Shown here piece after piece: positions 8,201 through 49,048 of a DNA stretch of 64,000 nucleotides. Position numbers and translations under genes: made by a program. The number at the start of each line of letters is the position of its first letter. Position 1 is the first letter of the stretch. The notes under the pieces are model-generated. The model worked only from the letters and a program-made list of their open reading frames with translations, ran no database searches and had not been told where the DNA came from. This DNA is from Antedon mediterranea (taxonomy: Eukaryota; Animalia; Echinodermata), in NCBI RefSeq assembly GCF_964355755.1, contig NC_092679.1:22055432-22119431 (forward strand). The letters run 5' to 3'.

Positions 8201-11200
8201 AGTATTGTTCAATAAATGTATTGGTAACCAAATAGTCTTGAGATTTATATAAAAATGATATTTTTAATCTATTATTATTATTATTAGTATTAATAAACGG
8301 TTTATTCAGGCCGCTATGCAGCAGAAACACACCCATAAGCATAAACAAACCTACAGCCAGTAAATCATATTTTTCTTGCTACTACAGACAGAGTGTATGG
8401 TTGTATGGTTTTCTTTATGCTAGGCTACTACATGGATTTAAATGACCTCACCTCCTATGCCATCCCCACTGCTGTCTCCCACATCCTTTAACTATTAGGC
8501 CTAAACCTCCAGGGAACATGACAAAGCCAATTCGAGGAACTAAACTCAGCCAATTCTATCATGGCTTGAGTTAGAAAATTATATATACTTTTTTTAAACC
8601 ACAACATCTATTGTTACTACTAGCTTGTTTTAACATGTTATGGTTGAACAATATCATTTTTATTTTTTTGCTAAATCTTCGCTGCTGGTAACTGTACTTT
8701 CAAATTTACAATAAAGTAAAGTACATGAATGAAAAAATAGCCACAATTTTTTTTAACTTCTTATTGAGTTTTTAAATAAAAACCATCTTATTTTTCTCAG
8801 TTATTGAAGTTAAACCCGTTAAAATAGTGGTGCATTCAATAAAAACGTAGTCCATATTTTTTTTTGACACATGCTGGTCTGTTCTTGTTAAGAAGCGCTG
8901 TGTTTTCCGCCAAACACTTGCTGATCAATGATAAACCCAAGGATCAGTGAGATAAGGCCAGGTATAATACATGTTTAAACTGGACATAATATTTTCCTTG
9001 ACCAACATTTTTTTTCTAAATGAACAAAGTTTGAAGCTTTTTAACAAAATTGTGGTTTCTGGAAGTCTTACAGTATATTGAAAAGAAATTATGTGTTATT
9101 ATAATTTAGTTAGTTAGTTTAGTTTCTTTAAATTACGAAAATAAATGTTCTTTTTATTATGTTCTATTGTACTGGTACCAACATATTGTTCGCCTAACCA
9201 CAGTATAAAAATAAAATGTTGCAAAATACTATTCAACAGGGGAGACTTTAAAAGAGTGTGGTAAAGAGGGCATAGCAAGTTCAGTTGACTTGAGGCAATG
9301 CTTGAGGTCACACCAAAGTCAAACGAGGACATTCCAGAGATGATAAAATTATCATTATGCTCACAGCATCCTACTAAAAGAAATCACAATTGGATGATAG
9401 GCATTATATAGAATAAAAATTACTTTAAAGGGCAAATATAAAGAAGTTGTTTTCATCAAAATTTGGAGTAACATAACTGTTTTTTAGTCAAAGAATAACT
9501 TAATTTTCTTTTTAATACTAACAAGATTGTGTTGAGCATTAGGAGGAAAATGGACTATCAAATGATCTTTCTCATGTTGATACATCATACAGTAGATAGA
9601 TATTAAATAGTAAACTCTTAAAATTTAAATCTCAAACTTGAAACTAAACATTTTTTACCTTTTTATTTTATCTTAGAATATAAAATACAAGCCCTATAGG
9701 GACAGCTTCAGGATCGAATATTCCCTTTAATAGAGGTGTCCGCTGAATAGAGATAGTGTTCAACAACAATGTTTCCACATGTTCGTTAAAATGGGAAAGT
9801 GTCCCTTAAATAGAGGTGATCACAAAGAAGAGGGTCTAACTGTACATTTTAAGAAATATAAAATATATAATACTCTACAGAGGGCTGCTAAATCTTGAAT
9901 AGAATATTGATAATAAAAAGAAAATTTACTTAATTCAAAATTATTCAGCAAATGCCATTTTATGATCAGACAGAAATAAATCTTTATGCTGTCTCATTAC
10001 AAATTATGGAAGTTGGCTTTAAATCATATTCCTATTAAAATAAATATAAACAAATTTCATGAAAACAATTTTTTTCATTGTAGTTCATTCCTCTGAGAGA
10101 AATACAGTATGTTGGTTTATCAAAGTAAAGCGGCAGATAGAAAAATATTTTTAATGTGTAAAAAAAAAAAATGAATATTATAAAGGAATAAAAGCTTTGG
10201 AATGAATCATATTTCTATGAACAAATTATTGCGATATTTAAAAGTAAAGCATTAAAAATAAATCATAATAAAATTAATATAATATTTCTAAGCGACATAT
10301 TACAGTCATTAATTAATAATATTAAATCATTTATTCAATATCTAAGCAAATGCTCTACAGATCTATCTCTATTTCACTTTAAAATGTATTAATCAAATAT
10401 CTGGGTCATATAGTTGAATTCTCATTACATGGACACACAATATTTTACTATTTGTCGTAAATACAAAGTTAAATTTTGTAATAAATGATGCCAACTGCAG
10501 TACAACCTGATTAAATTTGAAAATGGAATTTCGATAAAAAGCGGTATAAACTAAATATTTCTTTGGTTTATAGCAATCTCAAGATGTTGATAATAAATAA
10601 ATATAGATCAATTAATTAATCAATCAATCAACAATATTTATTTAGAAATAAGTGTTTTAGATATTTCATTTAACAAATACAAAATCTACAATGTGTGTGA
10701 AACAGTATAGTATCTATTATATGTCTTGCATAAGAGACACCATCCATACCAATTCAAGTGTGAAAGCTAGCTTAAGAACAAACTCATAAATAGTATTGTG
10801 TGCTCTCAAGATGTTAAATTGATTTTGACGTCGCGTCCTACATATGAACAATCGTTTGTTCCACATGATGATGTAAATATGATAATTTGGTAGAATGGTA
10901 TTGAATGACAACGTTGGCTAAAAATAACATTACAATACTTTAACGATAGAACCGCGAGCAATGTAGAAAAAACCTACGTAATCTATTATTAAATGATATG
11001 CCCTTTGTTCTGTTGTATTTTGTAATTTCATTTTGATAAAATAAATGTTAAATAAATTGATAGATCTAGTAATTGCTACAGTACAGATAAAAACTACTGC
11101 AACATTTGCCACGCGTAGGTAACGTAGTCTACGCGTGGCGGGTGCGTGGCGGTTGCGTGGCGTAGCATTCGTAGTGCGTAGGCTACGCGTAGCATTCGTA

Positions 11201-14200
11201 GCCTACGTTGTGATCAACTGTGTGTGGGAATTCCCCAAACTCAACTGTGTACAAGTACAGTACATCGTCGACGGCTAAGCAGGCTACGAAAAGTTCGAAT
11301 AAATAGAAATCATACGATTGTTTCGCCAATACAATAATATCATCATCATTATTAAACATACTTGAAATTCAAATTTTTCTAAAGAAAATAGCAATTAAAA
11401 TTGCTCAAAGCCTAGGCCAGACGCGAAAAGTCAAATTAACTAGGCCTACTGCTGACTGCTGTACATTCACCATCGCCGGCCAGCCAGGCAGTAGTGTACA
11501 AAATTAATTGATGACGGGCCGTTATTATGACTACCTTCCATAGTAATAGTATTAGTAGTAGGCCTAAAATTACAAGTAAATTTTTTATAAGTAATTAATA
11601 CAGTTACGTACTCGGTATGTTTCATTTAAACAAAAAAAAAATATACAGGCTTGAAACTGTCGTAACTGTACATCAAACTCCATTATTAGCTATTGTAACA
11701 ACAACCTGCAGCAGAGTGGTGCTGGAGGGTCAAGTTACAGGTCGTTTAAAACATCGTCATCAACAGAGAGGAGGATCGGAGGACGCATATAACATGTGCT
11801 TGCCTGATCTTGTTTTGGTTTTTTTTAGTCATGCGCGATAATAAATTAGATAGTATTTAAATAAATGTTATTTTAGTTATAAATAAAAATAAATTATAAT
11901 TAACATTTTAGGGCTAGGAAATATGCAAGACTTTATTTAATAAAAGTTGAACTTCACTAAATTGAAGGTTAAACAAAACATAAAAGTACAGTTCAGAAAG
12001 AGTATCCATCCGCGGATCATAAACACGTGGATATAAACACACTGGGCGAATGAATTACGAATGGAGTGATCCGTCTCGATTTCCGTTGGAACAAAAATAA
12101 TATCGTATTTGTATTCTATTATTTTGACATTTACAGTATTTAAACAATCCATCCATCCCATAGTACTAAATAAGCGTAACATTTCATTTAAACGCAATTT
12201 TAAAACGAAACATGATCGTTCATTATATAGCCTAGTAAACAAACATAGTTCAAACAGTAGATTAGTACTGCGCGATACACACACGTGGGTAAACGGCAGC
12301 TTCACGACGGCGAAAACTGTCGTATCGAGGAAATATCCTTCTGTCACCTAGGCTATATACCACATTATTTCACATTTTCACGCCATGTACATCGTATTTA
12401 ACGCTTGTACACAGTATGGATTATCATACAGTACTACTAAGTAGGCCTATATCTATAGGCGTACCACATATTTTAAAATTAAACTGTCGGTAGGTACGCC
12501 GGTAACCTTACCTTTTTAGCTAGCTAGCTAGGCCTAGTCGGAGGCCATTTCACACAAACAGACGACGACCGCCGTCCGATCGGTGATAGATGTACACTTG
12601 TTCTTCTTTCATAACAATAAATGTCCCATTTTAACACAACACACAGTAATTAATACTAATATTAATACATTTATTATTACTTCACAGTAATTAACTCGCA
12701 TTTTAAATTTGATGAAAACTAGTATTCAAATTAACTAATTCCGTGTGTGGTGCATGCAGCACAGTACACAATAATCTGAACATTGGGATTTCCCATCCTA
12801 GCTCTCGCTTCGTAGGCTACGCGTAGACTACGCGTAGCATGTTAGCTTGCGTAGATTACGCCACGCGAAACCTACGAAGTTGCCACGCGTACGAAACGTA
12901 GTCTACGCGTCCAAATGTTGCAGTATTTATTATCTGTACTGTACTACTACTACTACTAGATCAATAAAAAAATGTGAAAAATTATTTTGTTTAAATTGTT
13001 AATTTATTGATGTACAGACAAGCTCAGTCCTTTATCATCATTGTATCTTATTTTATTTTTATGAAATAAATTTTATTATTGATCATAACAAATTATGAAA
13101 GACATTAAAATGCCAACATTTATAATGACATTGTATGACATGGACAAAGTTCAAATACAGTCAACTCTTCCAAAATCAAACACTCAAAAATTAACTCAAA
13201 AATTTAATTTATTAATGGTTCAACTGTCATGCCAAAAATCCGGACTTGCTTAAAGACCCCTTCCCTGCAATTTTAGACGTTTTTTGGAAAATAATACATA
13301 TACAGTATATCACTTTAAAAACATTAAACCATGTCATTCCTTGTCTTAAATGTACGTTTTATGGTAAATTATGATAAAAAGTGAGAAACAATGCACTACC
13401 TACAGTAAGTAGCTCGCGGCGATCGACCTCTCGTGGACGGTCTTAGGCCTAGCCTAGCTAGGCTTAGTTTTGTAGGCCTACAGTACAGATAATAAATACT
13501 GCAACATTTGGACGCGTAGACTACGTTTCGTACGCGTGGCAACTTCGTAGGTTTCGCGTGGCGTAATCTACGCAAGCTAACATCCTACGCGTAGTCTACG
13601 CGTAGCCTACGAAGCGAGAGCTAGGAGGGGAAATCCCAATGTTCAGATTATTGTGTACTGTGCTGCATGCACCACACACGGAATTAGTTAATTAATTTGA
13701 ATACTAGTTTTCATCAAATTTAAAATGCGAGTTAATTACTGTGAAGTAATAATAAATGTACTAATATTAGTATTAATTACTGTGTGTTGTGTTAAAATGG
13801 GACATTTATTTTTATGAAAGAAGAACAAGTGTACATCTATCACCGATCGGACGGCGGTCGTCGTCTGTTTGTGTGAAATGGCCTCCGACTAGGCCTAGCT
13901 AGCTAGCTAAAAAGGTAGGGTTACCGGCGTACCTACCGACAGTTTAATTTTAAAATATGTGGTACGCCTATAGATATAGGCCTACTTAGTAGTAGTACTG
14001 TATGATAATCCATACTGTGTACAAGCGTTAAATACGATGTACATGGCGTGAAAATGTGAAATAATGTGGTATAGCCTAGCTAGGTGACAGAAGGATATTT
14101 CCTCGATACGACAGTTTTCGCCGTCGTGAAGCTGCTGTTTACCCACGTGTGTGTATCGCGCAGTACTAATCTACTGTTTGAACTATGTTTGTTTACTAGG

Positions 14201-17200
14201 CTATATAATGAACGATGTTTCGTTTTAAAATTGCGTTTAAATGAAATGTTACGCTTATTTAGTACTATGGGATAATATGGATTGTTTAAATACTGTAAAT
14301 GTCAAAATAATAGAATACAAATACGATATTATTTTTGTTCCAACGGAAATCGAGACGGATCACTCCATTCGTAATTCATTCGCCCAGTGTGTTTATATCC
14401 ACGTGTTTATGATCCGCGGATGGATACTCTCTCTGAACTGTACTTTTATGTTTTGTTTAACCTTCAATTTAGTGAAGTTCAACTTTTATTAAATAAAGTC
14501 TTGCATATTTCCTAACACTAAAATGTTAATTATAATTTATTTTTATTTATAACTAAAATAACATTTATTTAAATACTATCTAATTTATTATCGCGCATGA
14601 CTAAAAAAAAAAAAAACAAGATCAGGCAAGCACATGTTATGCGTCCTCCGATCCTCCTCTCTGTTGATGACGATGTTTTAAACGACCTGAACTTGACCCT
14701 CCACCGATCCTCTGCTGCAGGTTGTTGTTACAATAGCTAATAATGGAGTTTGATGTACAGTTACGACAGTTCCAAGCCTGGATATTTTTTGTTTAAATGA
14801 AACATACTGAGTACTGTATTAATTACTTATAAAAAATTAACTTGTAATTTTAGGCCTACTACTAATACTATTACTATGGAAGGTAGTCATAATAACGGCC
14901 CGTCATCAATTAATTTTGTACACTACTGCCTGGCCGGCGATGGTGAATGTACAGCAGTCAGCAGTAGGCCTAGTTAATTTGACTTTTCGCGTCTGGCCTA
15001 GGCTTTGAGCAATTTTAATTGCTATTTTCTTTAGAAAAATTTGAATTTCAAGTATGTTTAATAATGATGATGATATTATTGTATTGGCGAAACAATCGTA
15101 TGATTTCTATTTATTCGAACTTTTCGTAGCCTGCTAGCCGTCGACGATGTACTTGTACACAGTTGAGTTTGGGAAATTCCCACACACAGTTGATCACAAC
15201 GTAGGCTACGAATGCTACGCGTAGCCTATGCACTACGAATGCTACGCCACGCAACCGCCACGCACCCGCCACGCGTAGACTACGTTACCTACGCGTGGCA
15301 AATGTTGCAGTAGTTTTTATCTGTACTGTAGCTGGTAAACATCGGTAACGTACGAACATCGTACGCGAGCTATATACCTAGCCTGACGTTGTATAGTTGC
15401 TGCATTAATTGTCTTTCTATTTTTGCCAGACTCCGTTGATACAAATTGGGGAAAACCCGGTATTTTCGCTGAAAAGTTAGGAGTCTTCCATTTGTTTTGG
15501 CCTCACGATCGATCGAAAAGTGGGCGAATTACAGGTGAAAAACAAAAATATCAATCCGCGCGCAATGCATTTTGGGATTTATAGCGGGCCGCTATAATTA
15601 TTAGAATCGACTTATTTTTCACATTTTTAACCGTTTAAAGACGAAAAAAGTTATCGCAATAGGACCATATAGTATTATTTTTACATTAAATATAGTTTGT
15701 GATCTTAAATTAGATCTAAAAAACGTAGGGAATGGGGCTTTAAAGTCTAAAGACATTTAACAGGGCTTGAAAAATAGTGTTTTACTTATAGTACTCAGAG
15801 TATACTGTACCTAAAGGTCATCTAACTAGATAGGCCTAAAGGTCAAATTTGCATTTTTATTTAAATGTTTGTTACCTTTTCTATTTAATATAGCAGTAAA
15901 CATGCTATTTTGGTCTTGTTGACAAGGTGAAAATTGTCAAAATAATCCATAGTGTATTTTAAAAAAAATATCTACCCTACTGCAGCTTTTACCGGTAGCA
16001 AAATGGAGATAGACAAGAGAGACTAAACTAAAGCTCTGTCTACACTATCAAATTAGTTTGCAAAAAAAAGTGTGATGTTCCCAAAATATGGTGGTGATAT
16101 GACATCAATATGTCCATATATTGGCATAAAGTTTGATAGTGTAGACAGAGCTTAAGTATGGGAATATGAATTGTATAAATAAAGACTGAATTGAAAATGA
16201 AAACACTAAAGGATGCACTATTTACACTGAAGACCGAGACAGCAGATAGTTTTCGCAAAAAGCTAAAAATATTGCAATACAAATTTGCTATTCAATTCAA
16301 TCCAGTTCACATTGAGGTTTGGAAACAAGTATTATCATTATTTAAATTTTTTTGTAAGGTGGGAGGTAGCGGCTGGTGAAATTAATAATAGAGTAAAGGA
16401 TGATTCTAAGCCAACAATCTGTCGCAAAAAAAGAGTCCCATACATCGGTATACATTTAAATTTTATTTTATGTCTTTTACACACATGTGGCTAACTATTA
16501 CTGGTGGTAACAGGGGCTATTTTGTGGACCAGTTCACCGGGGTAACCCCCTATTTGTCTTGAATGATGTACTGTACTAGGTTCTTTAAAGTGCACATATG
16601 TTAAACTGTATACACTGGACCTACAGTTTATAGTCCTTATCCGAGAAGACTCAGAATTGTTTTACATTGGGCATGTTTCATTTAATATCTTTAATTTTTT
16701 TTTGTTAGGCAGATATCATTAAATCCCCCTGTCTCCAGTTCCTGTGCCTATAACATGACAAATTAGGCAGCAAAGCATAGCATACATGTACCAAGTTACC
16801 AAAGTTATTAAAGATGTCAATAGGACAATGAACTCCGACATTTCTTAATTTGCTAGCAAGATGTTCTGAAAATGATACTAGCCCTGGAGCGTCTTCATAT
16901 CTTATTTCTACGTAATCATTGTCTAACTTACCTGGTTGATGCCGAGATGTTTGGCAACGCTTTCAGACACGAAAAGGATGCGACCTTTCCGAGAAATAAA
17001 GATGACAAAACCGTTAAGCGCCTAAATAGTTTGAAAGAAAGAAAAATTTATTTTTAATATCTCAAAGAAGTTCATCAAATTACTTAAGGAACCATGACAA
17101 AATTATTCTACTGCAGTTACTGCAGTAACTACATTTTGTTTACTGTTTAACATGTTTATACAATTAATTAGAAATTATTATACACACTGTTAGTGTTAAT

Positions 17201-20200
17201 TGTTAATTGCCTTAAATTCATATTTACTGCAGTAACAAATATAGCTATTGGATGGAGTAGAATAATTTTGACATCATTGCTAAAGATATTTGCATAAATA
17301 AAATATGTATGTTACAACATCAATAATTAAAACATAGTGTTAAACAATGAAACTAAAATCAGAACAAAGGTGATTATATAAAGTTATTTTATTTTTATAT
17401 GACATTAAAAACAAATACTTTGTGTGTACAGTATCAGAGATGTACAGTAGAATGGCTAGTCTAACGATTGCACAATTTAAAGTGGAGTGAGAGAAATTAA
17501 AATGGCACTTTAGGTAGTTTTTGCAGTTTTTTTTTGGACGGGTGTTGTAATTGGATTGGGTGAGCACCTTAGAGTAAGCTTAAAATTGGGTAATTAAAAT
17601 GGATATTAATATTTAGGGATTCCCATTAAAGTGTTTTACTTAAGAAAATTTTTCAATTTTCTCTTAGGATAATTTTTTAATTTTCTCTTTGCCTAAAGAG
17701 TGAATTTTGAACAGCCACACGACTTAATTGAAAACGTGGCAAAAAATAAAAAAAATAAATTATAGTAATTCTTGGTTGAAAATAACCGAGTATAATAGAA
17801 ACTCTCTAGGTGCTGAATACCTTTGTTGTTTGCTAAAAATAGAATTATTTGAAATGTACAGTACTTTATACAATTGTTAACACAATGCCTTTCAAACGAA
17901 ACCAATGAAATTTCACAATCATTTCATCCAGGTATCACAAAAATCTGACCCATTTCAAAGTAATACTTTTTATTTTATTTCTTAAACAAATCTGATAAGA
18001 GATTTTGATTGTAAAGAATATTTTTAAAGCTGAATTATGCAAATTACGTTGTTTTGTAATGAACAAACTCGAGTGCCATTTTAAGATCATCAAGTTAAAA
18101 ATAAAATCTGTTGCGCGAGGCTAACTGGAAGAGTGGATTATTGCGTGCTATTTTAGAATATTAAAAGAGACATTTTGTAAAACAACATCATAATAGAGAA
18201 AACTAGGAAAACAATGCCATGAACGTTTAATTTGTTTTATATTCTAAAGATATAAACTTCTATTACTTTAAACAATACGTATTATTTTAATTACAAAATT
18301 AACAATATTAACATATTTTGCTTGGAGCATTTTTGAAAAAAAAAAATCATTTTGCACCATAAGGTTGGTTTCACATTTTTTTTCATTTGTGATCAGTTTT
18401 ATACATTTTGTGTGTGAATGGGATGTTTGCCAAGTTAATCCAAAGTTAGTAATCATTTCAGAATTGTGGATTAGGGGTAATAATAATATGGGATTAGGGA
18501 TAATTTATATAAAGGTTAATCTGTGCCTGTGTATAAAGACAAATAACACTGTTTCATTCTAAAACTTGTTGACACTTTATTTAGCTTCAGTCACCAAGAG
18601 GGTTAAGGGAGGAGCGCCATTTAGTACCAGCAGTACAACATGAATACTGTTGTACTGTATGTATCGTCCATACACATTTTTAACATTACCTCAAGCATAA
18701 GGGCGCCCCCTTCTTCATTTCCCGATAGACTCTTCAAAAGTCTTTCGCTATCATTATCCTCTCCCTGGGCAGTGATAGCCCTTGTTTCTGATTTCGTTTT
18801 CAGTTCATCTAGAAGTGCATTTCCTTCTAAAAATTAAAACAATATTAGACAAATTAATTTATAAAACAGAAATGACAAAGAAATTATTTAAAAAGTCAAA
18901 ATAATGTTTAAACTTATGTCTACACTATTAAATGACAAAAAAGTGTGATGTGCCAATATGGACACGATGATGTCATATTATCAGTACCCTATTTTAACAT
19001 CACTATCATATTTGGGCACATCACACTTTTTTTTGTCAAACTAGTTATATAGTGTAGACAGAGCTTATATGTGTTTTTTTTTGTGTTAAAGTACCTTACA
19101 AAAGTTTAAAAACCAGAAATGGTTAAATTATTTATAAGACGTGAAATAAAAAAACAGCCATTTAATAATAGTGAGAGCAACTGCTGGTTAGAGGTCACTG
19201 ACCCGTATCCCTTATCAGGGTAAGTACAACCGCACAATGTGTACCAGACCTTGTGTATACAGCGCATTACCTTTGGGCGTGCAAACAACACACAGCATAG
19301 CTGATATTTAAAGCACAAAAGGAGAGAAATTCTACCCCTGTTTCATGGAAGGAATGTGATGACAGATGATACTGCAGATGGGGGTTTTTTTTTTTACGAT
19401 TCTATGTACTGTATTTAGATAAGTATTATTGTAAGAGAGAAATTGGCCAAGCCCATTTTGTTGTAATACTGGAGTAGAGAGAGGTTATTGAAACAAGTAC
19501 AAATGGTTCATTATATAATATTGAAATACAGGTACAAATTTGTTAATCTAAATAATGAAAAATGGTTTCACACAAAACACAGTAGAACCAGACACCATTA
19601 TTCAGGGGACACCTCTATTAAGGGGACACTTTCCCATGAAAATAATAAGAGGTAACAAGGCCAACTCCTATTCAGAAGACATAGAAATGAGATAAAGTGG
19701 ACCCTTTGTTTGGTCCCAGAGGGGTCCCCCTTTAATGTATTTGAGATCAAAGCTATTAAAAATAGCCATTAGTTTTTTCCCTTCACAATCTTTTATAACC
19801 TAATAATTAATGTTAAAGTCAATGTATAGTAAATAACTATTATTATGTGGTGGGGTGGGGAGGAGTAAGAAAAGGGAAAGCCTTAAAGGCCAGGGTGCGG
19901 GCAAAAAATTTCTATTGATCATACATTCCAATAATTATCGATCTATAATTTCCCCTATGTTTCATAATTTTTGGAATTTTATTTGTGTTGCAGGAGCTTT
20001 TTGAAAATTAGCACTTTCAAATCAGTGGGGGGATAGTTCAAATTACACAGTAAAATCTCTATTCTTTTGTACACAAATTTTGAAAATAGAGAGGCATTTT
20101 AAAAAGCTATGAAAAATAAACGGTGTGGTAAAAAATGTTATCAGATGACTAAATATAGGTAATATAACTTGAATTTTACATTTCTGTTATTTTTATTCAA

Positions 20201-23200
20201 CTTCAGAATTTTATTTACATGCTATAGCAAAAATTATCCACCGTATATCCACCATCTTTTTTCACCTTCTAGGGAGTCACCAGACATGTTATTACATTAT
20301 GTTAACTACCTAACTACTGAAAAAAAGTCTTCCTGGTTTTTTTGGCAGAATTTTGCCAAATTTTGTATTTGACCATATTAGGGAAAATTCATGGTTTTTC
20401 ATCTTGATTTCTGTTACAAATATTTTATTTATGTACAATTACCCAGATATTATATTTAAAATTCATGCCTGTACCTGAGCTTTAAAACATTGATGAACTT
20501 TGGTGGGAAGGGCTACAGTGTCAAAGCAATGATTCAAGATTTAAAGTGGAGCTACTGTACACTCAGACTTTCTCAGCTTATATTATGTTTAAGTATGTTT
20601 AATTGAAAGTGATTACATAAAAAAAACAGGGAAAATACGGAAATATTTCCCAAAAACTCATTTCTAAAAAATCGGTCAGAAAATAGTGTTTTTTAATACA
20701 TTACACTTTTTCAGTAACTTAGGCGTTATTAGTTTACAATACGTCGCGAAACGCGTTACACTTAGCAACTGACGCGATTTAGTCGCCGGTGAACGCATGG
20801 GTGGAATGTCTCCCCTTTGGTAAATTATGTGTCGAAAAATGGGGAATACATTTTATACGATTTGTTTAGGCCTAAGTAATATTTCCGATAAAAATGTCAG
20901 TATAATCAGGGAGCAACTCCCTGGTATAATTTACATGTATTGTAACCTCATGATTTGCACTGTACAACAACAGCATAATAATCTTATCAGATTGTTTATT
21001 AACTTTAAGCTAGGCCTAGCTAAGCCGTCTGCTCAGCCTAGCTAGCCTTTAATTTTTTGTCTAGGCCTAGGCTATATGCATTCATGGGTTTGAAAATTCT
21101 TGGTCGTTTCGCCCCATTTATCATTCCTGGGTTTTCTCGCACGTTAGAATTGTGAAACACAAAATCCTATACAGAACAAGAGTAGTAAAGCGATGTGGAA
21201 GCTTAGGCCTGACTAAAAAGCAACTATTCAGGCACCCTATCATGGCCCATATGGGTAGGCTGAGGTTGGGTGACAGCAGAACAAACTTCACTGCTGAGTA
21301 TCAGCCTAGCAGCTGGAGCCCAAGCAGCATCGGTACATACCTACACTCTAGTAGGCCTAGGCCTAGCTTTTTTGAATATATAGCCACATCTTTCTCAAAT
21401 CTCGTTAGATTTGACATTTTAGTAATAAGTCTCATAATCACATTATTACACTGTGAAACATGATAGGGTCACATTCAGAATGTTTTAATATACTTTTTGC
21501 CCGTCAAAAATAACATCGCGACAAAATAACAGATCGCCAGCTGCAGTAGTGTGATTGTGAAAAATGTCACGTGATCATACTCCCTAGCAAAATAAAAAAC
21601 CCAATTGGACCCGAACGGGGTAAAGTGTCTATTTACGCAAAATTGCGCAATGTATACGCGATAACTATACCAGAAATAGAAAGATCTGGAAAAATTACAT
21701 AAAACTACATTAAAAATTTTTTTTTTAGTGAAGAAATTAATTTTTTAGGATTATTCAAATATACCCCCCTTTTGCATGTAAAAGAATAGGAAATTACAAG
21801 GTATCCCCCCAAAACGCAAAAAGGCATGATTTTCAAGAAACTCGTACTCATTGAAAAAAAATTCAAAAAAATATGAAGTATGGGGGATGATATTTTTAAA
21901 TAATAGTTGAAATGTATGAAAAATAGTAATTTTCTGGGTGGAGCTCCACTTTAAATTGTTTTGTCTTGAAACTGTTTAAATATACTGTTTAATACTATTA
22001 TGATTAAATTTTGTATAAGTTTCAATTTACAGTACATTGTGTTTTGTTCTTTTAAAGTATGCCATGGCTAGTATAATATTGTATGATATCATTTTACTTT
22101 GATTATCTGCATTCCAATGAACAATATCATAATGTAAACAATGACACATTTTCAGAATAAACAACAGCTCATGCAAGGTAAACAAAAACAAAATTCAGGT
22201 AAACAATATAAGAGGAATTGTTAAACCATAATTGATAATCAGTCCTTGGTGCATAAACTTTCTTGTAGGAATGACCCACTTTTAAGTTTTAAATTATGCC
22301 ATAATTAAGCCAGTGGTGTTAGTAGTCTGTGAGTGCTATGTACTTACAGGGATAAACCCGACAATAGCCTATAATCCCCAAGGGACAAGTACAATACAAA
22401 ATAAAGGAATCAAATATATGCAAATTTTGATTTGATTTTCTTTTTAAAAGATCAACAAATTATTTAACACTCATCATCTATTTAATAATAGACTAATCGG
22501 GAAACCCTATCCTACCAATACATTTCATTGATTTTGATTATTTTTTTAAAAGATGACATTCGATAATGAACTAATCCGTAAACCACACCGCCCTACCACC
22601 AATACCAAAAAAAAAGTTGATAAAATCAAGGCAATCAAACAACAGGACACTGAGCTCGCCTTGCCAAGATACTGTAGGAACTCGTAACAGTCCTTTGATC
22701 TTATGTATGGCTGTGAAAAATACCAACAGTACTGTACTATGTACATATTCTCAGTGGCACGGTGTCTGTTAAGGGGCTTGGAACTGATCGTGTTGCAGCC
22801 ACAGATAAACCCTTTGATCTCAGGAGCTCAGCATCCTGTTGTTAAATTGCTTTGATAATATAAACATCACATACCTTTTTGTGAAAACTTTTTAATTCGG
22901 AGGTAACTCGTAGCAAGACGAATTATGGAACCTTTGTCCAACTTTGAAGTGATTTCCTCCGGAAACGGAAGGAGTTTGGAGAGAGCAGCAATCTCCACTC
23001 CTTCTTTATCGCGTCGCATTTTAGCGGCATAGCGAGATTTCTCTGCCCTGAAATGAAAGAAAAAAACAGCAATGACAATTTGTTCTAGGTTGACAGCCAT
23101 TATATTAATGTATAATATCTTAACTATTCTAAAGCTCTGTCTACACTAGATTGACAAAAAAGAGTGCCCAAATATGGTCATTGTGTCCATATATGGGCAC

Positions 23201-26200
23201 ATTATATTTTTGTTGTCGCATAAGTTTTATAGTGACTGTAACTGACACTCAAACAATTTAAAAAATCAAAATTGTTTTATGATTATAAATAAGTTCATCT
23301 AAGATGTTGCTGTGTCAAACAATTTTTGGAGTGGATTTTTGTATGACATGCAGCAACCCAATGGAAATAAAACAACACAGCATAGTGATGTGTAAACTCA
23401 TTCCATGCTTTCTCTCTTCTTAAGCCATTGTCTCCATCATTAGGTTATATGCATGATATGCATATAACCTCTTGATTCTGTCAGAATCTTGATTTATTTC
23501 TTTATTTATTCTTTCCTTAGCACTATTTTGTCCGTGAATTATCTTGATATCAGTTTCATCTATCTAAGTCAATTTTTCAGAGTATATTCCTTATGGCCAG
23601 GAATCGATGTGGTTATGTTTTCAGGGTGCGCAATCAAACATTACGCGGTCTACGCGCGATTTAACGAAATCACGTTTGTAATCATATCTTCACAAGCATG
23701 AATCACTTTTAAACAAAATTTGGTACTCATAAATTTCAGGTCATATTTCATCATATGGCAATACAATTACGTGCGTAGCGCATATAACGCATGCGTACGC
23801 GCGCTTAGAATGTTGAAAATTGTCAGAATTTATTTTCGATGAAATTAGAATACGTTTCAGGCAATTTTAAGCGTTTAAAAAATTGCCATGAGTGCGCAGA
23901 TTTTTGCACGTGCACTGCGCGTCAAACGTTAATGCGCACTGTTTTTGTCCGATTAATGTTGTATAACCTTTCTTTAATAATATCATCATATTTTATTCAC
24001 TTTTCAATGCGAAACAGCGTTATACGAGCACGTCAAAAGTGACAGGCTACGCACGTGTAAGTTAACAAAATGGTGAAAATATGCTAAATTTTAAAATTAA
24101 TATATATCGTTAGAATGCTCGGGAACACCTATTTTTTATTTAATTTTCTTGAAGTGTATGTATCATATGTATGATTTATTATGAAATTAGAAGAACAAAA
24201 GTTGATTAAGTCATCATTAATGGCATATTAAATTTAACAAAATTAATTTCGACAATCAAACAAATTATAACATTTTCTTAGGCCAAAATAACAAACTTAA
24301 CATTAACTTTCTTCCTTAAGAAGTTCATATATTAAAGTTAAAAGTATATAGTTTGACAGTGCATCATTTTTTTCAATTTTTAAAGATGTCATCATAGTAA
24401 AACATTATAATCCATTGCGGTATGTAATAATCTATCTGCACCAAAGTGGTTACTGCATAGTAAATACACGGAGGAATTTTTCTCCAACTTTTAGTCAGTT
24501 GTGTATGGCTCGATGGGCTGTGCTCGTGTCTATGCCATTCAAGGTACCGAGTTCGAGTCTCACCTTGGGAAACGAAATAAGATTTTTTTTTTATTATCCG
24601 TATTGTTTGTTCAAATTTATTTCTTAGTGTATAGATTATACACATGATTTATAATGAAATCTAGATAAAAAGTTACTTTATGTCTTTATTATTATGTAAC
24701 AACAAATGCGGTTTATGACATTATACGCAGAGGGATCTTTGATCGGATTGTGATACCGGCTATGGTGTTCGCGTTAGCAAGGTCCTATCATTTATTATAA
24801 ATAATTAAAGATTCTGAGAAAATCAATCAATCAATATATCTTTTAAAAATCAATTATCTTTATTTAAATCAATGCATATAACCTATAATTCGTCATAGTG
24901 ACGAATTAAATCTAGTTCTCATCTTAGTGTGCTATTATTATTAATACTACTGTATTTAAGGATAACAATTTACTATTTGATGACCTTCAAATAATTCTAA
25001 ACAAAAGGATAATCATTTTAAATTTCTCTTTAACGATCGGCGAACAAAAATAGAACATACGCATCAATAAATAATGAATTCTAAAAAATAACATTTTTTC
25101 ATGTGAATATATTTCTATATTATCATTCTTTTCCAATAAAACTTTGCCCACTCTTATTGAATTTAATTGCCAAAACACACAATAAAAAATATACTAAAAT
25201 TCAATACTTCAATAGACTTTTGCCCCTAGCTAGATTCTTATAGTATTTTTAATCAGTATCAGATTAATGTAATTAATCTTCTAAAATGTACATCATATAT
25301 TTAAATGCAACGTTACGAAAGATGATTTAATAATAAAAACAGCAAAACAAAATGAGTTTTCTTATATTTTACAAAATGAGTCCTGATTTTATAATATTTA
25401 TGATTTCCATTTGAATATCATATGAGAGAATTATTACATTAAATAAAGAGTACAGAAATGTAAAAAACATGACAATAAAAAACCATAAACTAAATCTATT
25501 TTTATACAAAATTCTAGGCTGCACATGAACGAGGTGACTTTACGTGTGTTCCTACGGGAATACTATAAAGGTTTCACAACAAAGAATATTACTAAATCCA
25601 ATCTCATTTAATTTCCATCTCCTCACAATCAAGACAAAAAATTATGAAATTGCATGGGATGTAAATTAGCACTTGAGTTGAATACACTTTAAAAGCGCAG
25701 ATATAATTGTTTGTGAATAACATATTTTTATAGCATGATATAACTTTGTGTGCTATTTCAATATAAACCAGTTTATTCTCCTACACTCAAATGTTTTTTT
25801 TGTGCCCCGATTTCAATATTTTCAGTTTTTAATTCTTTTCATTGTTATTTTTTTTTTTTTAAATCAATTTTTTTTTTGTCGGATTTTAATTTAATTTTTT
25901 TAGCAAATTTGGTCATTTATTATTTTACTATCTGTATATAATGTAATGCGTAGAAAATAAGTAGAGTAATTGAAGGCATCAATGAGCAATCCTAAAGTCA
26001 GACACTGTGGATGATACCACTATCTTGGAGGGGAGTTTAAAGATTGAAATAAGTTTCAAGTTATTTTCTTCTGTAAAAGAAAGAAGGGCCAATGTCGGTT
26101 TATCCATGCAAGTTAGGAACAAAACACAAAACTAGAAATCTTCATTTACACAGATTTTTACAGCTTTTTATTAAATTGAATCCAAACATCTAGGATTACC

Positions 26201-29200
26201 CAACGGTACTGTAGGTTGTTCACTTTTCAGATATTACCGTACATCTTTAAACCCATGAATTAATTAATCATTTTTGTTTTAGTAAATTATCTTTTTTTTT
26301 TACATACAGTTATCCAATTAATTAAATAAATATTAAATACAATATTTTTACAATAGTTTAGTATTTTACCTTTCTAACCAGTACATCAATTGTTCGCCCA
26401 CAATTAGCTTTTAGCATTAAACTACCAAACCCTACTCACTGTGATTCAGCACTATGCTATGCTGTTTATTAATGATTGTATACTAAAACAAGGTGCCAGT
26501 ATAAGTTGTAACTTCATTACCGTATACAGTACATTATAAATATTAAATTATATAAAACAAAATGTGTTGTGTATCCTAATTATTCACACATATGCTATAC
26601 TATCATCAAAGCATTTTTTCAGCACAAAGAAGTAGACTTAAGCTGTGTCTACATTATCAAACTAGTTTGACAAAAAAAGTGTGATATGCCGAAATATGGT
26701 AGTGATATGCCGAAACATGGTAGTGATAGACACTATCATGTCCATATATTCAGGGGACATCCCTATTTCATTGGACACCCTTATCAAATAAACTGTTTAT
26801 TGGGTACTGCAGTAAAAGGTGTGTCCTGTATCATTACCAGGTTTTTTTAAAATCATTTCTAAGAATAAGACCGTTTATTTTTGTAATTTGTTGTGAGGAC
26901 CCATTTATGAAAAAGAAAGTTTTAAATACAAATCCACTTATTACTTCATAAACAATACTTATTCTACCTATTGTAGTATTGTTGTATTCCATTATCTTCT
27001 GATAGACTTTAAAATTAGACAAAGTGCTTTTTAAGAGGGATTTCAATGGTTATTGCAGGGAACATTTTCGCCAGTGTAGCATAGCAAAAAGCTATACAAA
27101 ACAGTTTGTAGCAAAATTGCTAAACAAAATTTTTTAATGAAATTTTTCCCTTTATTGTGCTGCCCTAATTCAGCACAATACTGCAGTCGAAGTACTATTG
27201 ATATTGTATGGGTTTTTTTCCAAAGTTTATGAGGTTAATTGTATTGACTATTATATTAAATTCTGAAGCCACCACTAAAATCTAAAACTGGACTTATGAT
27301 GCGCTGTATATTGAAGGCGATCAAGCGACCTGGGCACTCTTGCAATTAAAAACATTTGCCCTGTGTGCTACAAAATGAAATGATTTATGGTTTATTTTTA
27401 AAAAAATATTTTTAACTTGATTTGAAATCATTGTACTTTTCTATTTTCATAATCCGTTTTTTCACTGCACAAGAAGAAACCAGTAGGTGCTTTTGTGGTG
27501 TTGGTAGTTGGTAGTGGTCGTGAGGTGGTTTCCCGAATGATCGTAAAATCAAAACGGTACTGGGTATGACCAACTAGCGTTATTGTCACCGGCTAGTCAT
27601 CCATTCATAGAAGTACTAATGTAGTAGCCTACCTGTACGGTGACCATAGAATGTGACCCGAGGCATGACTAACTACGACTTTTAGATGATAGAAAGTTGA
27701 GAAAAAATGTTACGAGTAGTTGTACGACATGAAGATGTTTATGAAATTATGTCAATAATGTTTACACACTAGGCATACAAATAGTAATGTTTGTTAGTAA
27801 AAATAATTTTGAGTTAATAAGAATAAGATATAAGGAAGAAAAGCAAAGAGACTATGGAGCAGCTATTCCTGAATATACAATACTAAGTATCGTAGATTTA
27901 AATTATAAATTTTCAGCGATCTTGTCAAAGGTCAAGCGCCATATAGCCTGCCACGTTTCGATATTCAATATTGAACTTGACCTTATCTGGATAACCAACA
28001 ATTTAGCCCTATCGCTCCAAAGAGAGGATACAAATAAAAACTAATTCAGTTGAGCATCCCTATTAAGAAATGGTATTTCCCACAAACTGTGCCCTCAATA
28101 GGGAGCCATTCATTTATTTTCGTAACACAGTCACAAAATAGACTGTAAAAAGTATTTTTAAACAAGAAAAAGATTTTAAAAATTAAAGGTACAACAAGAA
28201 GCTCAACAAAGGAAATTTTCTAAATTCAATTTTGTTATGAATAAAACGGCAACTTTCTGATAAACTACACAAAATTCAAATACACATTCTACATGCACTC
28301 TAATTTAAATACTTCAGATAAAGAATAAAATCGAAATAACAATAGTTTTTCGATCAATTAAAAGACTGTTTGATAAAGTGATTTGACTTCAGTGTTGAGA
28401 TGAAACAACTGCAGTAACAACAGAGACTTATATTTCCTTGAGCCTACTGGACAATATCCCGAGGCTTCTCAGCCAAGCTGTAAAAACAGCCAGGCTCCTT
28501 CACAAACAATTCTCTTAAACATGATTTTATTTCAACTTACTAAAAGCATTTTTATGTCAAGGTGAAGTCTAGAGCTTTAACCTAATTTTGTATTTAAAGT
28601 GTTTTGCATTGTCCACAGTGTTGTGCTCCGGTAGAATTTTTAAATGTTGAGTCATGTATTGTAAGAGGTATACAGTTACAACTACAGTTTACAATGCATT
28701 CTAGTAGGTATCCCAATGTAAAAATTCAAATTAATGATGGTACTTTTTCTTTCAGTTAATCAGAAGGAACTTACTGAACATAAACTTTTGCAATTTAAAT
28801 GATTAAAATCGGATTATCCATTCAAAAGTTATGGTCCGTTAAAGTGCCCAAAAAACAGTGATTTTTGCTTGAAAAATGGCACTTTTTCTAATTATATTTG
28901 AACCCATTTTTGAAGGGTTATAACTTTTATACTAATAATTTTAAAGTTCTTATTTTTTCCAAACCCATAGATACAACAGAGTTGTACAAGAATATTTTTT
29001 TTTTGGGTGTCCTCTACATTTTTTTTTTTAGATATCGCCCTCCAAAATTCGTCAGAGGGCTTTTTACGCGTGATTTTCCCAATGTCTCAAAAATGCCCAA
29101 AAAGTTCCTGTCTTTAAATGATTCATAACTTTTGAACCAATGTGTGAATTAACTTCTTTTTTTTTGCATTGCATAAAATGTAATATGTATTTTAGTAAGG

Positions 29201-32200
29201 TTATTTATATTGACAGGTAGGTAATTCTGAAATACAACAAAATATTGTTAAAAAATGTTAAAATGTGAAAAAAAAAAATATTGCGTTAAAAAACTGTGTG
29301 GGTATTGTTTCTTTTCATTAAATATTATTTTTCATAAGTATACATTTTTTTAATAATTCTAGTATTTAAAGTTATATTTATAATCATATATTATTTTAAT
29401 TGATTTTCGAACCGCCAAAAATAAGAATTAAGCCCGTGCTTATTATGTGTTCGATTCCATTTGGAGCGCCGGGCCGAACGTAGACTCGGCCGCGCCTACT
29501 ACAAGTTAAGTTATATAGGCCCCTAGCTAAGGTCTAAATAAAAGCCTGACGAAAATTCTGCCTAAGAAATATCGGGAAGAAATTTTTTATTTAACAAAGT
29601 AATTACCTCAATGGTATAATTGTAACATGTTTAATTTTATTTCCCTTTCAATAATTCTAACCGAAAGTTGCACTTTGAATTGAAATATACGGAATAAAAT
29701 TTAGGCCTAGAAACAGCGTAGACATACAACGGCAACACAGGCCAAAGCGCGTTTCGGCCGCCTACATAGAATGGCTTACGGCCGCTGCATAGCAAAATCA
29801 AAGCTTCTTAAATTTCTTCGGTACATTTCTTCCTAACGTACTTGCTTTATATAGTAGATTTATAAATATTCCACTTATTAAATAATTTAATAAATCGGTA
29901 AAATTGACGTTTCGAAGCAAATATTCCATGAGAGGCGACATTTTTCGACATGCCTCGTGTGCGGCGAAGACTAGTTCAGAAAATGGAACAGTCCACTGCA
30001 GGGGTTATCCAATCATTAATTAACGCGCTAATACATGCATACCATGCACATTGTCTGGGCGACGGTAATTTAGTAATAAGCGGAGAACTGAATCCCCCCC
30101 GTAAGGAAAATGGTAAACACTGATATTTATGGTAGGGATTATTTTTCTCAGTGGTTGGTCTTGTTGGCCTCTTCGCACGAGGTCCACGCAAAGTCAAATA
30201 AAACGATGTGGTTTATCAAACAGAAATATAAATTAGCTTCAATTCAATACTAAATTAGCCAGATTTTGATAATGAGAAAGACTAAAAAATTCAATTTTTA
30301 TCGTTAAAATTGACATTTGAGGCGGATGTACATAATAATAATAACCGATTTACATATCAAAATAAAGAGTATTTAAAGCCTGATAACATGCAACAAAAAT
30401 TACTCCACCACCTATTATGGACCTCGTGCGATCGTGTTTTGAAAATGGGTAGGTGTTTTCCAAAGTTATTTTTAGCGCGCGGATTTCGGCTCGCCGGCTT
30501 TTGTACCTCATTTTTAACTCGCGTTTTCTATTAAAATATTTAATAAACATAGATTAAAAATATATGAAAATAATCCCTTAAACAAGATCTTTCCAGACAT
30601 ATAATTTTTATTCACATGTGTATATAAGAAATAGTATATTTTTAACTTCAAAGACACGTCACTTTTTGAAATTTCACGAACGTGTTAAAATCGCGGTAAC
30701 GAAAATCCGCTTCATTGGGATACCTAATTCTAGTAGTAGTTTTACTGTAGTACCGTACCTGTATTTAAATTTTGTAAGTTAAATTTAGATGATGTAGAAC
30801 GATAATATAATCCTTTCAAATTTGACAAAAAGTGTGATGTGTGCCAAAATATGGTAGTGATATTGTCAAATATGGTACAGTAGTGATATTGTCAAATATG
30901 GTAGTGATATTGTCAAATATGGTAGTGATATGACATTATATTAAAGCCCCATTCCCTACGTTTTTTAGATCTAATTTAAGATCACAAACTATATTTAATG
31001 TAAAAATAATACTATATGGTCCTATTGCGATAACTTTTTTCGTCTTTAAACGGTTAAAAATGTGAAAAATAAGCCGATTCTAATAATTATAGCGGCCCGC
31101 TATAAATCCCAAAATGCATTGCGCGCGGATTGATATTTTTGTTTTTCACCTGTAATTCGCCCACTTTTCGATCGATCGTGAGGCCAAAACAAATGGAAGA
31201 CTCCTAATTTTTCAGCGAAAATACCGGGTTTTCCCCAATTTGTATCAACGGAGTCTGGCAAAAATAGAAAGACAATTAATGCAGCAACTATACAACGTCA
31301 GGCTAGGTATATAGCTCGCGTACGATGTTCGTACGTTACCGATGTTTACCAGCTAGGCCTACAAAACTAAGCCTAGCTAGGCTAGGCCTAAGACCGTCCA
31401 CGAGAGGTCGATCGCCGCGAGCTACTTAGGTAGTGCATTGTTTCTCACTTTTTATCATAATTTACCATAAAACGTACATTTAAGACAAGGAATGACATGG
31501 TTTAATGTTTTTAAAGTGATATATATGTATTATTTTCCAAAAAACGTCCAAAATTGCAGGGAAGGGGTCTTTAATATTTATTATAATTTTATAATACTGT
31601 AATAATAAACCAAATTTAATATTTAATACTAATAATCTTTATTGGAAAAAGACACCTTTATATTTCGGCGGCACATGTGTCAATACTGATTTTGATATTG
31701 TATTTTGCAGAAAAAAATTCAAATAAAAAGAAACCAAAGGAAAATCAAAATTGTTGTAATGACAAAAAAAGTGAAGTATTACCTGTATAATTATTATTCT
31801 TTATTATTATTATTTTTTATTAAAAACAAACCAATTGGCAGCAAATCTGCTGAATTGCATGGTAAGGGACAATATACATTCAAAAGACAATTAATAATGT
31901 ACAGTAATTCAAAATATACCTTAATTTATGTTGAATAATCTTACAGAATCAATAATTATTAATAATAATCTCATTAATACACCATGCTCACACACAAAAA
32001 TGATTTTTAAATTAAATTACAACATATATTAATGAGGATATTATACACATTATACATAGATTTAAGAAATTATATTTGACCATGACAAAGTTGACATTGA
32101 TGAATGTTTTTTTTTGAAAGTTAAAGGTTAAAAATATGTTACTGTAATCCAACCTCTAACCTTTGGGACTAAAGTAATAATAAAGTACTAGGGCAAGTCC

Positions 32201-47203: not shown

Positions 47204-47640
47204 GATTATATTATAAAATCCAAAAGATATAGACACCAGTAATCAATCAACGTATATTTAATGCAACATTTCAATCCAATTATGTCCATATTACTTAAAA
47301 CTAGGACATAAAACTAAATAAAGTTCTTCCTAAAACACTGTTTTTCACCCACCGCGTCGGCCATTTTCGTCAGATTATTTTATGCAAATATGGGTCAAAA
47401 GTATGAAGCGTGATGACCTCAGTGCCCGATTTACCTACGACGATCTCACTTTTCATGTGGCGTGTGATGACGACATCACCACCCAGTTAGCTCATCAAAT
47501 AAATGACATAACATTTTTCTCCTTTATTTTTCTCTATCAAAAAATCAAGATGAACAGTTACCATGGAGTTACATAGAGAGGTCAAAGTCGGTCATATCCT
47601 GTTACGTACGTTGGTATAACAGCGACCTTAATCCGACTTT
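47204..47640 (-). promoter_or_regulatory. Putative 5' UTR/promoter of the bHLH-PAS gene
   Basis: Local CpG enrichment, CGGCCATTTT (YY1-like), octamer ATGCAAAT at 47382, TGATGAC motifs, AGGTCA half-site. Confidence 0.4.
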
Positions 47641-48779
47641 AGAAACTATTTAGATTGGGATCAAAAAGCAATAACTTTATTAAGTTATTATTTCAATGAT
47701 TGTTAAAAACAATTAAAAAGTAATTAAACGCTTATAACATTTTTAAAATACACTTAAAAACTGGTTGCCTTAGTCTATACGTTTAATGTCTTTTTTGGAC
47801 AACTAAATTATTGTCAAACTTAAAAACTTATTGTATTGAAATGAATATTACATTTTGTAATAAAGGCACTTATGGAATTAGAATTTTAGAAATAGTGATA
47901 TATGTAACAAGAACTGAATTATTTTAGAAATACTTAATAATAGGAGTAACATACAACAATCTGAAAACTTAATCATCATCATCTACCGGTATTGTTTTGA
48001 TTATTATGTCATAATCACCGCGATCAATTATGACATCATTTAATTGATTACTTTTTCAAATACTAATGATGTATTTCAAATTTAGATGATATCTGTTAGC
48101 AATGTAATGATAAAACAATAATAACTTATACATTATTATATAAAAATCTTATAGAAATATTTAATAATAGGCCAATTTTGTAATAATATAACTGACGTAT
48201 TCACTGTACTGTACAAGAAAATTTACGTCAATTATAGAGGGCGATCTTTCTCTAATTGATTTGATGTCTTCTATCTGCTGTAACGCACATTTTAAAGTAA
48301 TCAAATAATTTATATTATTATCAATTATGGTATGATTAACTATTTAAAAAATAGCAATTAACGTATACAATGTTACCTATACTATATATACTTACGCTTG
48401 GTACATTTCTATCTAACGCTGCCGACAATCATTTTGTTTATAATTCAATTAATGATATGTTGTCTCTTTAAACAATTTTTTTTTTCAAATTTGTTGTTGC
48501 CATTTTAATTTCATGTAATAGTTATTCAATATCATAATTTTGACCAAAAACTGGATAAAAAAAAAATGATTTACCTGAAATAATGTAATTGAAAGCAAAA
48601 TATACTTAAATTTAAATTTCAGACAATAGTTTTTGGTTAAAATTAAGCGTTTCGTTTGTCTTGTTATAAGTGAAATATTTTTTTTGTTACAGAAGTGACT
48701 GCAAAATGGCCTATTCAAAGTCTGATTTTATTTTAATTTTTCATGTTTTTGGAGGACAATACATCTTTAATGTATTTAA

Positions 48780-49048
48780 TTTAGCTGATATATCTCATAT
48801 TCTCAACAATAAGTTAGTAGTTACCAGATCTGGAAGATTAACAACAATTCCAGTTAAAAGAAATAGACATAAATTTTCATTCTTACCTAGCGCTATTAGA
48901 CTACACAACAATGTTGTTGTTAGTTTCCAAGTTGATCATGAATGTAAATATTATGTATGTATTGCTTTGTTTGTGTTTTTCTGCCAGGAAAACAATTATC
49001 ATTATACTATGTATGAAATGACTTAATAAATCGAATCTGAATCTGAAT
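48780..49048 (+). mobile_element. 5'-truncated LINE 3' end (Rex1/Babar or L2-like)
   Basis: Peptide TRSGRLTTIPVKRNRHKFSFLPSAIRLHN resembles LINE ORF2 C-termini; followed by AATAAA and a (GAATCT)n tail. Confidence 0.6.

What the first reader, a model, noticed from the sequence alone, without database searches (positions are those of the whole stretch)
11256..30882. Pervasive TA-CAG-TA / TA-CTG-TA insertion scars, demonstrated by internal repeat comparisons
Seen directly: in several places where two copies of a repeat can be aligned within the window, one copy has TA and the other has TACAGTA or TACTGTA. Cases: 11256-11262 vs 15150 (1.85 kb element); 13301-13307 vs about 31523 and 13401-13407 vs 31427 (626 bp element); 16569-16575 vs 40907 (SINE); 30876-30882 vs neighbouring tandem units; 20553-20559 inside one TIR compared with the other. 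The heptamer also recurs throughout the introns, sometimes stacked (40482-40498, 41091-41125, 50902-50916). Established: TA+CAG/CTG+TA is the canonical excision footprint of Tc1/mariner elements with CAG termini (e.g. Sleeping Beauty), and CAG-ended, TA-flanked elements are present here. Inference: insert-and-excise cycles are so frequent in this lineage that footprints act as a major micro-indel mutational process, even inside young repeat copies. An alternative is a repair pathway that makes the same templated insertion.
Basis: partly seen in the sequence, partly recalled or inferred. Interest (0 to 1): 0.85.

Follow-up and report, generated by a model that had tools for sequence, protein, structure and literature searches.

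The report
Transposon exit scars pepper feather-star DNA
The seven-letter word TACAGTA/TACTGTA is about six times commoner than chance in this stretch of feather-star DNA and is a five-letter addition at a TA where repeat copies can be compared, most likely the scar left when cut-and-paste jumping genes land and leave again, but it makes up only a minority of small insertions and deletions.

Summary
TACAGTA/TACTGTA occurs 108 times in 59 kb after masking arrays and duplicates, against about 19 expected, and is the most over-represented 7-mer. Of the six cited cases three are clean, two also read as 5-bp tandem duplications, and one lacks TA in its partner. One case is polarised as an insertion. 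Flanks are symmetric and favour G-TA-C (p about 1e-19), like the pogo element Passer rather than Sleeping Beauty; slippage fails its test. TA-flanked, CAGT-ended non-coding elements are present; no transposase is. Best reading: canonical end-joining footprints of pogo-like elements, accumulated over a long time in a crinoid (BTBD gene identical to Antedon mediterranea). 'Major indel process' is overstated: 4 of 38 indels between repeat copies and 0 of 12 shown (of 25) between haplotypes are footprints; a steady-state estimate is about 1 per 100 substitutions. No genome was available for a genome-wide count. The scan has reported such scars before in other genomes (placozoan; TAGGCCTA in other animals).

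The parts
13301..13307 (.). clean scar TA>TACAGTA inside the TTAA-flanked 626-bp element
13401..13407 (.). clean scar TA>TACAGTA, same element copy
30876..30882 (.). clean scar in 1 of 4 tandem 21-bp units; polarised as insertion by 3 neighbouring and 5 distant empty units
11256..11262 (.). scar-like 5-bp indel in the 1.85-kb element; also a tandem duplication of 5 bases
20553..20559 (.). probable scar in one arm of an inverted repeat; partner has TC instead of TA (weak case)
11079..12941 (+). 1,863-bp non-coding element, TA on both sides, ends CAGTACAGAT..ATCTGTACTG; candidate scar donor
   Evidence: no Pfam hit in its ORFs
13481..15328 (-). second copy (1,848 bp, 24 substitutions) inserted at a TA of the 626-bp element with TA duplicated; empty site seen in the sister copy
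13254..15739 (+). TTAA-flanked element with AG..CT ends (Kolobok-like, label recalled), 626 bp + two scars + the 1.85-kb insert
30945..31570 (-). uninterrupted 626-bp sister copy, 3 substitutions from the other
38030..38516 (+). 487-bp MITE, TA-flanked, ends CAGTAGAACC; candidate scar donor
37238..38701 (+). probable older TA-flanked CAGT-ended element (ends match 9 of 12) that contains the 487-bp MITE
40482..40498 (.). three stacked heptamers
41091..41125 (.). two stacked heptamers plus a third 17 bp on
50902..50916 (.). two heptamers 8 bp apart
36001..44000 (.). densest zone: 36 of the 108 heptamers in 8 kb, between the bHLH gene and the BRF1 start

Best explanation
TA sites in this window have gained five letters to become TACAGTA or TACTGTA, most likely as the repair scar left when CAG-ended, probably pogo-type cut-and-paste elements inserted and later excised. 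Shown: the 5-bp difference between copies, insertion polarity at one site, the enrichment, the symmetric G-TA-C flank bias, and TA-flanked CAGT-ended elements in the same DNA. Established for Sleeping Beauty-type elements: insertion duplicates TA, staggered cuts leave three terminal bases on each donor end, and end-joining of the mismatched overhangs gives either middle letter. Inferred: that the donors are the non-autonomous CAGT-ended families seen here, moved in trans by a pogo-like transposase encoded elsewhere; that the process has run for a long time at roughly one scar per hundred substitutions; that small scars persist while their donors move on, so scars outnumber occupied sites about ten to one; and that clusters such as 13301/13401/13481 reflect local hopping or a favoured target.
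For: 108 vs about 19 expected, top 7-mer. Both middle letters are common (47 A, 61 T after masking), as the heteroduplex model requires. 4 of 5 five-base indels between repeat copies fit, against 1.8% for random tandem duplications, 0.13% for random insertions, 0.75% for random deletions; P(4 or more of 5) at most 5e-7. Flank half-sites A58 C48 G81 T29 vs 70/33/37/76 expected, symmetric about the scar (p 0.79 for asymmetry), and still so in the 79 free sites (G 57 vs 27). Passer (pogo) targets TA in the centre of AAGTACTT (PMC9976928 passage); ZB and SB prefer ATATATAT (PMC7913693 passage). Canonical footprint word: bioRxiv 10.1101/659086 and PMC6943129 passages. One CAG-ended element sits in a TA whose empty state is visible in the sister copy. 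One-mismatch neighbours are in excess by about as much as the perfect word (331 vs 241-251), as a long-running process predicts.
Against: No transposase in 228 ORFs of 55 aa or more scanned and no genome to search. No site was seen both occupied and scarred. 0 of 12 haplotype indel rows shown (25 in all) are footprints. Only one site is polarised. Two cited cases are equally tandem duplications. Pogo assignment rests on end sequence and flank bias, not on a protein; Passer's own footprints range from 0 to 4 bp. The neighbour excess may include other elements' ends and scars. In rice, perfect excisions are rare (8 of 94; PMC4423477 passages), so so many clean scars need a more uniform repair here.
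Confidence: 0.8

Rival explanations
1. Hit-and-run: the scars are written by the same enzymes but mostly without a heritable occupied stage (insertion reversed at once, or an excision-only or domesticated transposase removing new insertions).
For: About 90 excess scars against 4 whole and a few partial CAG-ended elements; two scars in a copy only 3 substitutions from its sister, P about 5e-4 at the window-average rate, post hoc; in rice insertions outnumber excisions; excision-only SB mutants exist (PMC6943129).
Against: Ordinary long-term accumulation also gives many scars per surviving element; the estimated rate is modest; whole elements do become established here.
Confidence: 0.1
2. Replication slippage or tandem duplication in GTAC-rich sequence makes the word.
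For: 11256 and 16569 are exact 5-bp tandem duplications; 18 of 108 heptamers are compatible; most small indels between copies are tandem duplications; one satellite amplifies the word.
Against: 90 of 108 are not compatible; slippage-type flanks are no commoner than control flanks (33 vs 36, p 0.81); three clean cases have no local template.
Confidence: 0.04
3. The excess is mostly remnants of element ends (TA plus CAGTA..) rather than excision scars.
For: 11 of 108 continue into TIR-like sequence; convergent stacks TACAGTACTGTA occur 3 times and divergent ones 0 times, which could be two fused ends.
Against: TACAGTC/G/T are 8/15/24 against 108; flank bias is symmetric, which end remnants would not give; copy comparisons show exactly 5 extra bases.
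Confidence: 0.03
4. A transposon-independent repair pathway, or selection for a protein-binding motif, produces or keeps the word.
For: Density peaks upstream of BRF1 (dispersion p 4e-7); in Trichoplax the related ACAGT repeat lies near genes and was proposed as a binding site (PMC2871265 passages).
Against: Templated repair copies nearby sequence and would not give a fixed CAG/CTG with no template nearby; the word appears inside young non-coding mobile elements; clustering is not significant once stacked and terminal sites are removed (p 0.14).
Confidence: 0.03

Closest known systems
Canonical excision footprint of Sleeping Beauty and Frog Prince (Tc1/mariner): bioRxiv 10.1101/659086, PMC6943129, PMC3878927 (passages)
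   Same: Identical seven letters, both middle letters, TA at both ends; shorter forms named for SB (TACTA/TAGTA, TATA) also fit two other indels in the 1.85-kb pair, though these are equally slippage.
   Different: Described from engineered excision; here natural and accumulated at about 1.5 excess per kb. Flanks are G-TA-C, not ATATATAT.
Passer, pogo superfamily (PMC9976928, passages)
   Same: TA target in the centre of a GTAC palindrome; short TIRs; present in invertebrates.
   Different: No transposase seen here; Passer's end sequence was not visible in the passages; its footprints are reported as 0-4 bp; outer positions of AAGTACTT are not enriched here.
Natural excision footprints between Asian and African rice (PMC4423477, passages)
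   Same: Excision as a natural source of small polymorphisms, read from paired loci.
   Different: There 8 of 94 excisions were perfect and most were messy; here one fixed word dominates.
(ACAGT)n microsatellite of Trichoplax (PMC2871265, passages)
   Same: Same five-base unit, unexpectedly abundant, near genes.
   Different: Tandem arrays, interpreted as possible binding sites, with no mention of footprints (0 hits for the word); here mostly single dispersed units with donors in view.

Membership tests
Canonical Tc1/mariner-pogo (ITm) excision footprint | TA + three terminal bases of either end + TA, replacing one TA | tested here: met
   5 aligned cases, 3 of them not explicable by slippage
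Canonical Tc1/mariner-pogo (ITm) excision footprint | Long allele is derived (insertion) | tested here: inconclusive
   met at 30876; other sites have only two copies; in the 20-bp array the long form is the majority; no outgroup
Canonical Tc1/mariner-pogo (ITm) excision footprint | Elements with matching CAG..CTG ends and TA duplication in the genome | tested here: met
   11079-12941, 13481-15328 (empty site visible), 38030-38516, probably 37238-38701
Canonical Tc1/mariner-pogo (ITm) excision footprint | Same site seen occupied, scarred and empty | tested here: inconclusive
   not seen in one diploid sample over 19.4 kb, tables truncated
Canonical Tc1/mariner-pogo (ITm) excision footprint | Palindromic target preference around TA | tested here: met
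   symmetric G-TA-C bias
pogo superfamily (donor elements) | DDE_1-type transposase that groups with pogo families | not testable with these tools
   none in the window; no genome; TIR searches gave no donor with a transposase
pogo superfamily (donor elements) | TA target within a GTAC palindrome, as for Passer | tested here: met
   for positions -1/+1 only
Sleeping Beauty-like Tc1 (donor elements) | ATATATAT target preference | tested here: not met
   A at -1 / T at +1 not enriched (58 vs 70 half-sites), G/C 2.2-fold
ITm footprint formation | Transposase excision plus end-joining yields the word | not testable with these tools
   needs an excision assay

The most novel reading that the evidence does not exclude
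The genome carries a dated, countable ledger of past jumps in which scars outnumber surviving elements by an order of magnitude because most insertions are excised almost at once (hit-and-run, or policing by an excision-only pogo protein); trails such as 13301 > 13401 > 13481 record successive hops of one element over about 100 bp, and at least two scar codes (CAG/CTG and GG..CC) run side by side.
Probability: 0.12. Interest if true: 0.8.

Novelty: new member of a known kind. Interest (0 to 1): 0.48.

Why it matters
Excision is the half of the DNA-transposon life cycle that genomes are thought to record poorly. A fixed, alignable scar at about 1.5 per kb would let one count past jumps, read the natural target preference of the enzyme from scars alone, and measure how much small-indel variation excision contributes. 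It also warns that a top-ranked 'motif' in such genomes can be a mutational by-product, not a binding site. The mechanism itself is textbook; what my ten literature searches did not return is a description of its natural accumulation at this scale in an animal (library limited to open-access text).

Tried and rejected
No whole genome held, so no genome-wide count or transposase search. Pfam on 228 of 232 ORFs of 55 aa or more (the other four were among those scanned): only host genes (bHLH, BRF1/TFIIB, BTB-BACK-PHR), no transposase. TIR of the 1.85-kb element in metagenome contigs: 0 matches. A MITE-end pattern gave 2 viral and 8 metagenome loci; none held a TIR-bounded transposase by inspection of long ORFs (not Pfam-scanned); one 131-bp CAGT-ended MITE in L010; the phage matches look like chance. 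First read-laying (39400-58800): 12 of 121 indel rows shown, all in high-copy repeats, none 5 bp; the lack of a 5-bp row near 40907 only hints that the repeat's usual state is empty, and I do not count it. Rejected: slippage as main source; element ends as main source; local templating. Orientation of adjacent stacks (3 same-direction, 3 convergent, 0 divergent) is too few to test. No heptamer in the two BTB exons against 2.7 expected (p 0.07): not significant. Literature: 10 searches found only engineered footprints, rice excisions and crinoid genome papers (listings only); no supplements were read, and Passer's TIR and footprint figures lie in figures or supplements I did not see.
Full report
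Setting. The window is 33% G+C animal DNA. It holds a bHLH exon of the HIF/NPAS type, BRF1 exons and a BTB-BACK-PHR gene on the opposite strand inside a BRF1 intron. That protein is 100% identical to a record named for Antedon mediterranea and 92% to Anneissia japonica, so this is a feather star. No whole genome was held; all counts are for 64 kb.

Is the word enriched? TACAGTA occurs 53 times and TACTGTA 86 times. A 20-bp satellite at 38753-39301 supplies about two dozen. After masking four arrays and the second copy of six duplicated stretches, 108 remain in 59,056 bases against 18.8 from an order-2 model; it ranks first of all 7-mers and first of all TA-NNN-TA words. Shuffles in 2-kb blocks (60 per order) never exceeded 20, 33 and 45 for orders 1, 2 and 3. 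Eleven sites run on into TIR-like sequence, 19 lie within 12 bp of another, and 79 are free.

Are the cited cases right? All coordinates hold. 13301, 13401 and 30876 are clean: exactly five extra letters, no adjacent copy, no CAG/CTG template within 37-40 bp. 11256 and 16569 are true 5-bp indels but are also perfect tandem duplications, so they do not discriminate. 20553 needs a substitution, since the partner arm has TC. Only 30876 is polarised: three neighbouring units and five related units elsewhere are empty. To avoid picking cases I listed every indel with clean flanks in 93 self-alignments, large arrays left out: 38 rows, some being one event seen from several family members; 5 are 5 bp long and 4 of these are TA>TACWGTA. 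Random tandem duplications, random insertions and random deletions give that pattern in 1.8%, 0.13% and 0.75% of cases.

What makes it? The word is the canonical footprint of Sleeping Beauty and Frog Prince: three terminal bases between two TAs, from end-joining of 3-base overhangs (bioRxiv 10.1101/659086, PMC6943129, PMC3878927; passages). Three tests favour this over rivals. First, donors are in view: two copies of a 1.85-kb non-coding element with CAGTAC ends and TA on both sides, one inserted in a TA whose empty state is seen in a sister repeat; a 487-bp MITE with CAGTAGAACC ends; and a probable older 1,464-bp element around it. Second, with the scars turned to one strand, the flanks are symmetric and biased: half-site counts A58, C48, G81, T29 against 70, 33, 37, 76 for other TAs (p about 1e-19; symmetry p 0.79), also among the 79 free sites. 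A dimeric transposase gives such symmetry; leftover ends would not. G-TA-C matches the centre of the Passer (pogo) consensus AAGTACTT (PMC9976928 passage) and not the ATATATAT of ZB and SB (PMC7913693 passage); the outer positions show no clear bias. Third, slippage predicts that the second flanking base copies the middle base; it does not (33 vs 36, p 0.81), and 90 of 108 sites cannot be tandem duplications. Against: no transposase in 228 ORFs scanned, no donor with a transposase in TIR searches, and no site seen both occupied and scarred. That CAGT ends are typical of pogo/Tigger, and that TTAA with AG..CT ends marks Kolobok, is recalled, not from a call.

How important is it? Four runs of one sample hold this DNA; they may be the sample behind the assembly, so they show the second haplotype only. 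Over 49030-58800 they give 60 substitution rows and 25 indel rows; 12 indel rows were shown (about 10-11 events) and none is a footprint; the one 5-bp event is a tandem duplication at 57724. The 95% upper bound from 0 of 12 is 22%. Sixteen of the 21 heptamers in that stretch lie on contigs that carry alternative alleles and whose gap letters leave no room for a 5-bp loss (my reading of table 8; contigs are mosaics, and 6, 7, 9, 17 and 23 gap letters in other contigs are unexplained). So most scars are shared by both haplotypes. One-mismatch neighbours number 331 against 241-251 expected, an excess similar to that of the perfect word, which suits a long-running process more than one burst, though other ends and scars may contribute. 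If gain balances decay, 1.5 excess words per kb times 7 mutable sites gives about one scar per 95 substitutions, or 0.6 expected in the stretch tested (a model, not a measurement). That is a few per cent of indels between haplotypes and about a tenth between repeat copies: the commonest single inserted word, not the main source of indels.

A local oddity. The two 626-bp elements differ by 3 substitutions, yet one carries two scars and a whole CAG-ended element within 180 bp, some 310 bp from another copy of that element. At the average rate two scars per 3 substitutions has P about 5e-4 (post hoc). Local hopping is known for SB and Tc1 on scales of hundreds of kb (PMC3878927 passage); a trail of 100-bp hops or a favoured target are both possible and untested. 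Density is also uneven, 36 of 108 in 36-44 kb (p 4e-7), but not significantly so for free sites (p 0.14).

Comparison and novelty. It works like, and by the tested features is, a canonical ITm excision footprint; the donor family cannot be filed without a transposase. Natural excision polymorphisms are known from rice, where only 8 of 94 were perfect (PMC4423477 passages). The Trichoplax ACAGT repeat has the same unit but was read as a possible binding site (PMC2871265 passages; paper found through an earlier finding). Ten searches of the open-access library returned no account of this accumulation in an animal genome. Earlier notes of this scan describe the same scar in a placozoan and a TAGGCCTA scar in other animals; these are unchecked AI notes and no support, but they show the finding is not new to the scan. 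The second word is here too: TAGGCCTA at 21 unmasked sites against about 1 expected, TAGCCTA/TAGGCTA 25 against 6.6, with two TA-flanked GG..CC-ended elements.

Verdict. Observation confirmed; footprint origin likely (0.8, or 0.9 with the hit-and-run variant); scale as a mutational force overstated; new member of a known kind; interest 0.48.

Noticed in passing
window-wide, e.g. 21352-21365, 44940-44953, 57602-57627: Second scar-like class: TAGGCCTA at 21 unmasked sites vs about 1 expected; TAGCCTA/TAGGCTA 25 vs 6.6. No empty/filled pair was demonstrated.
   Followed up: partly
28707-30724 and 23443-24883: Two TA-flanked elements with GG..CC ends (GGTATCC.., GGTTATA..), candidate donors of the TAGGCCTA class.
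   Followed up: partly
51995-52158: 164-bp hairpin MITE absent from contigs in all four runs, i.e. present on one haplotype only; precise empty site with an AT duplication; ISL2EU-like by recall.
   Followed up: partly
38753-39301: 20-bp satellite inside the 5' region whose unit contains TACTGTA; the second unit is 15 bp and lacks those five letters: a scar amplified by the array, or one deletion.
   Followed up: partly
37127-37221 and 37434-37522: Duplicated 90-bp stretch in which one copy has TACTGTA and the other TACAGTA at the same site.
   Followed up: no
55240-57120 (- strand): BTBD3/6-like gene nested antisense in an intron of BRF1.
   Followed up: no
11605-11609: The fifth 5-bp indel between repeat copies (TTACG-type) lies inside a heptamer of the 1.85-kb element and is neither footprint nor tandem duplication.
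   Followed up: no
17118, 17225, 26805: TACTGCAGTA three times; ACTGCAG 26 vs 4.2 expected: perhaps a further scar form.
   Followed up: no
2310, 16031, 18917, 23130, 26637, 30820, 60787, 61553, 62529: Hairpin-like repeat family with a 21-bp internal unit, at least nine copies.
   Followed up: no
33795-35684: 1.9-kb non-coding element with 267-bp inverted repeats, 96% alike.
   Followed up: no
58860-59335, 2751-2825, 19579-19650, 52975-53643: Decayed copies of a MITE family with a 17-bp GACACC..TATTAAAGG unit and CAGTAGA-type ends; one expanded to a 23-unit array in a BRF1 intron.
   Followed up: no
L010:688-818: 131-bp CAGT-ended, TA-flanked MITE with the same end motif in a metagenome contig that has 7 heptamers in 3.8 kb.
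   Followed up: no
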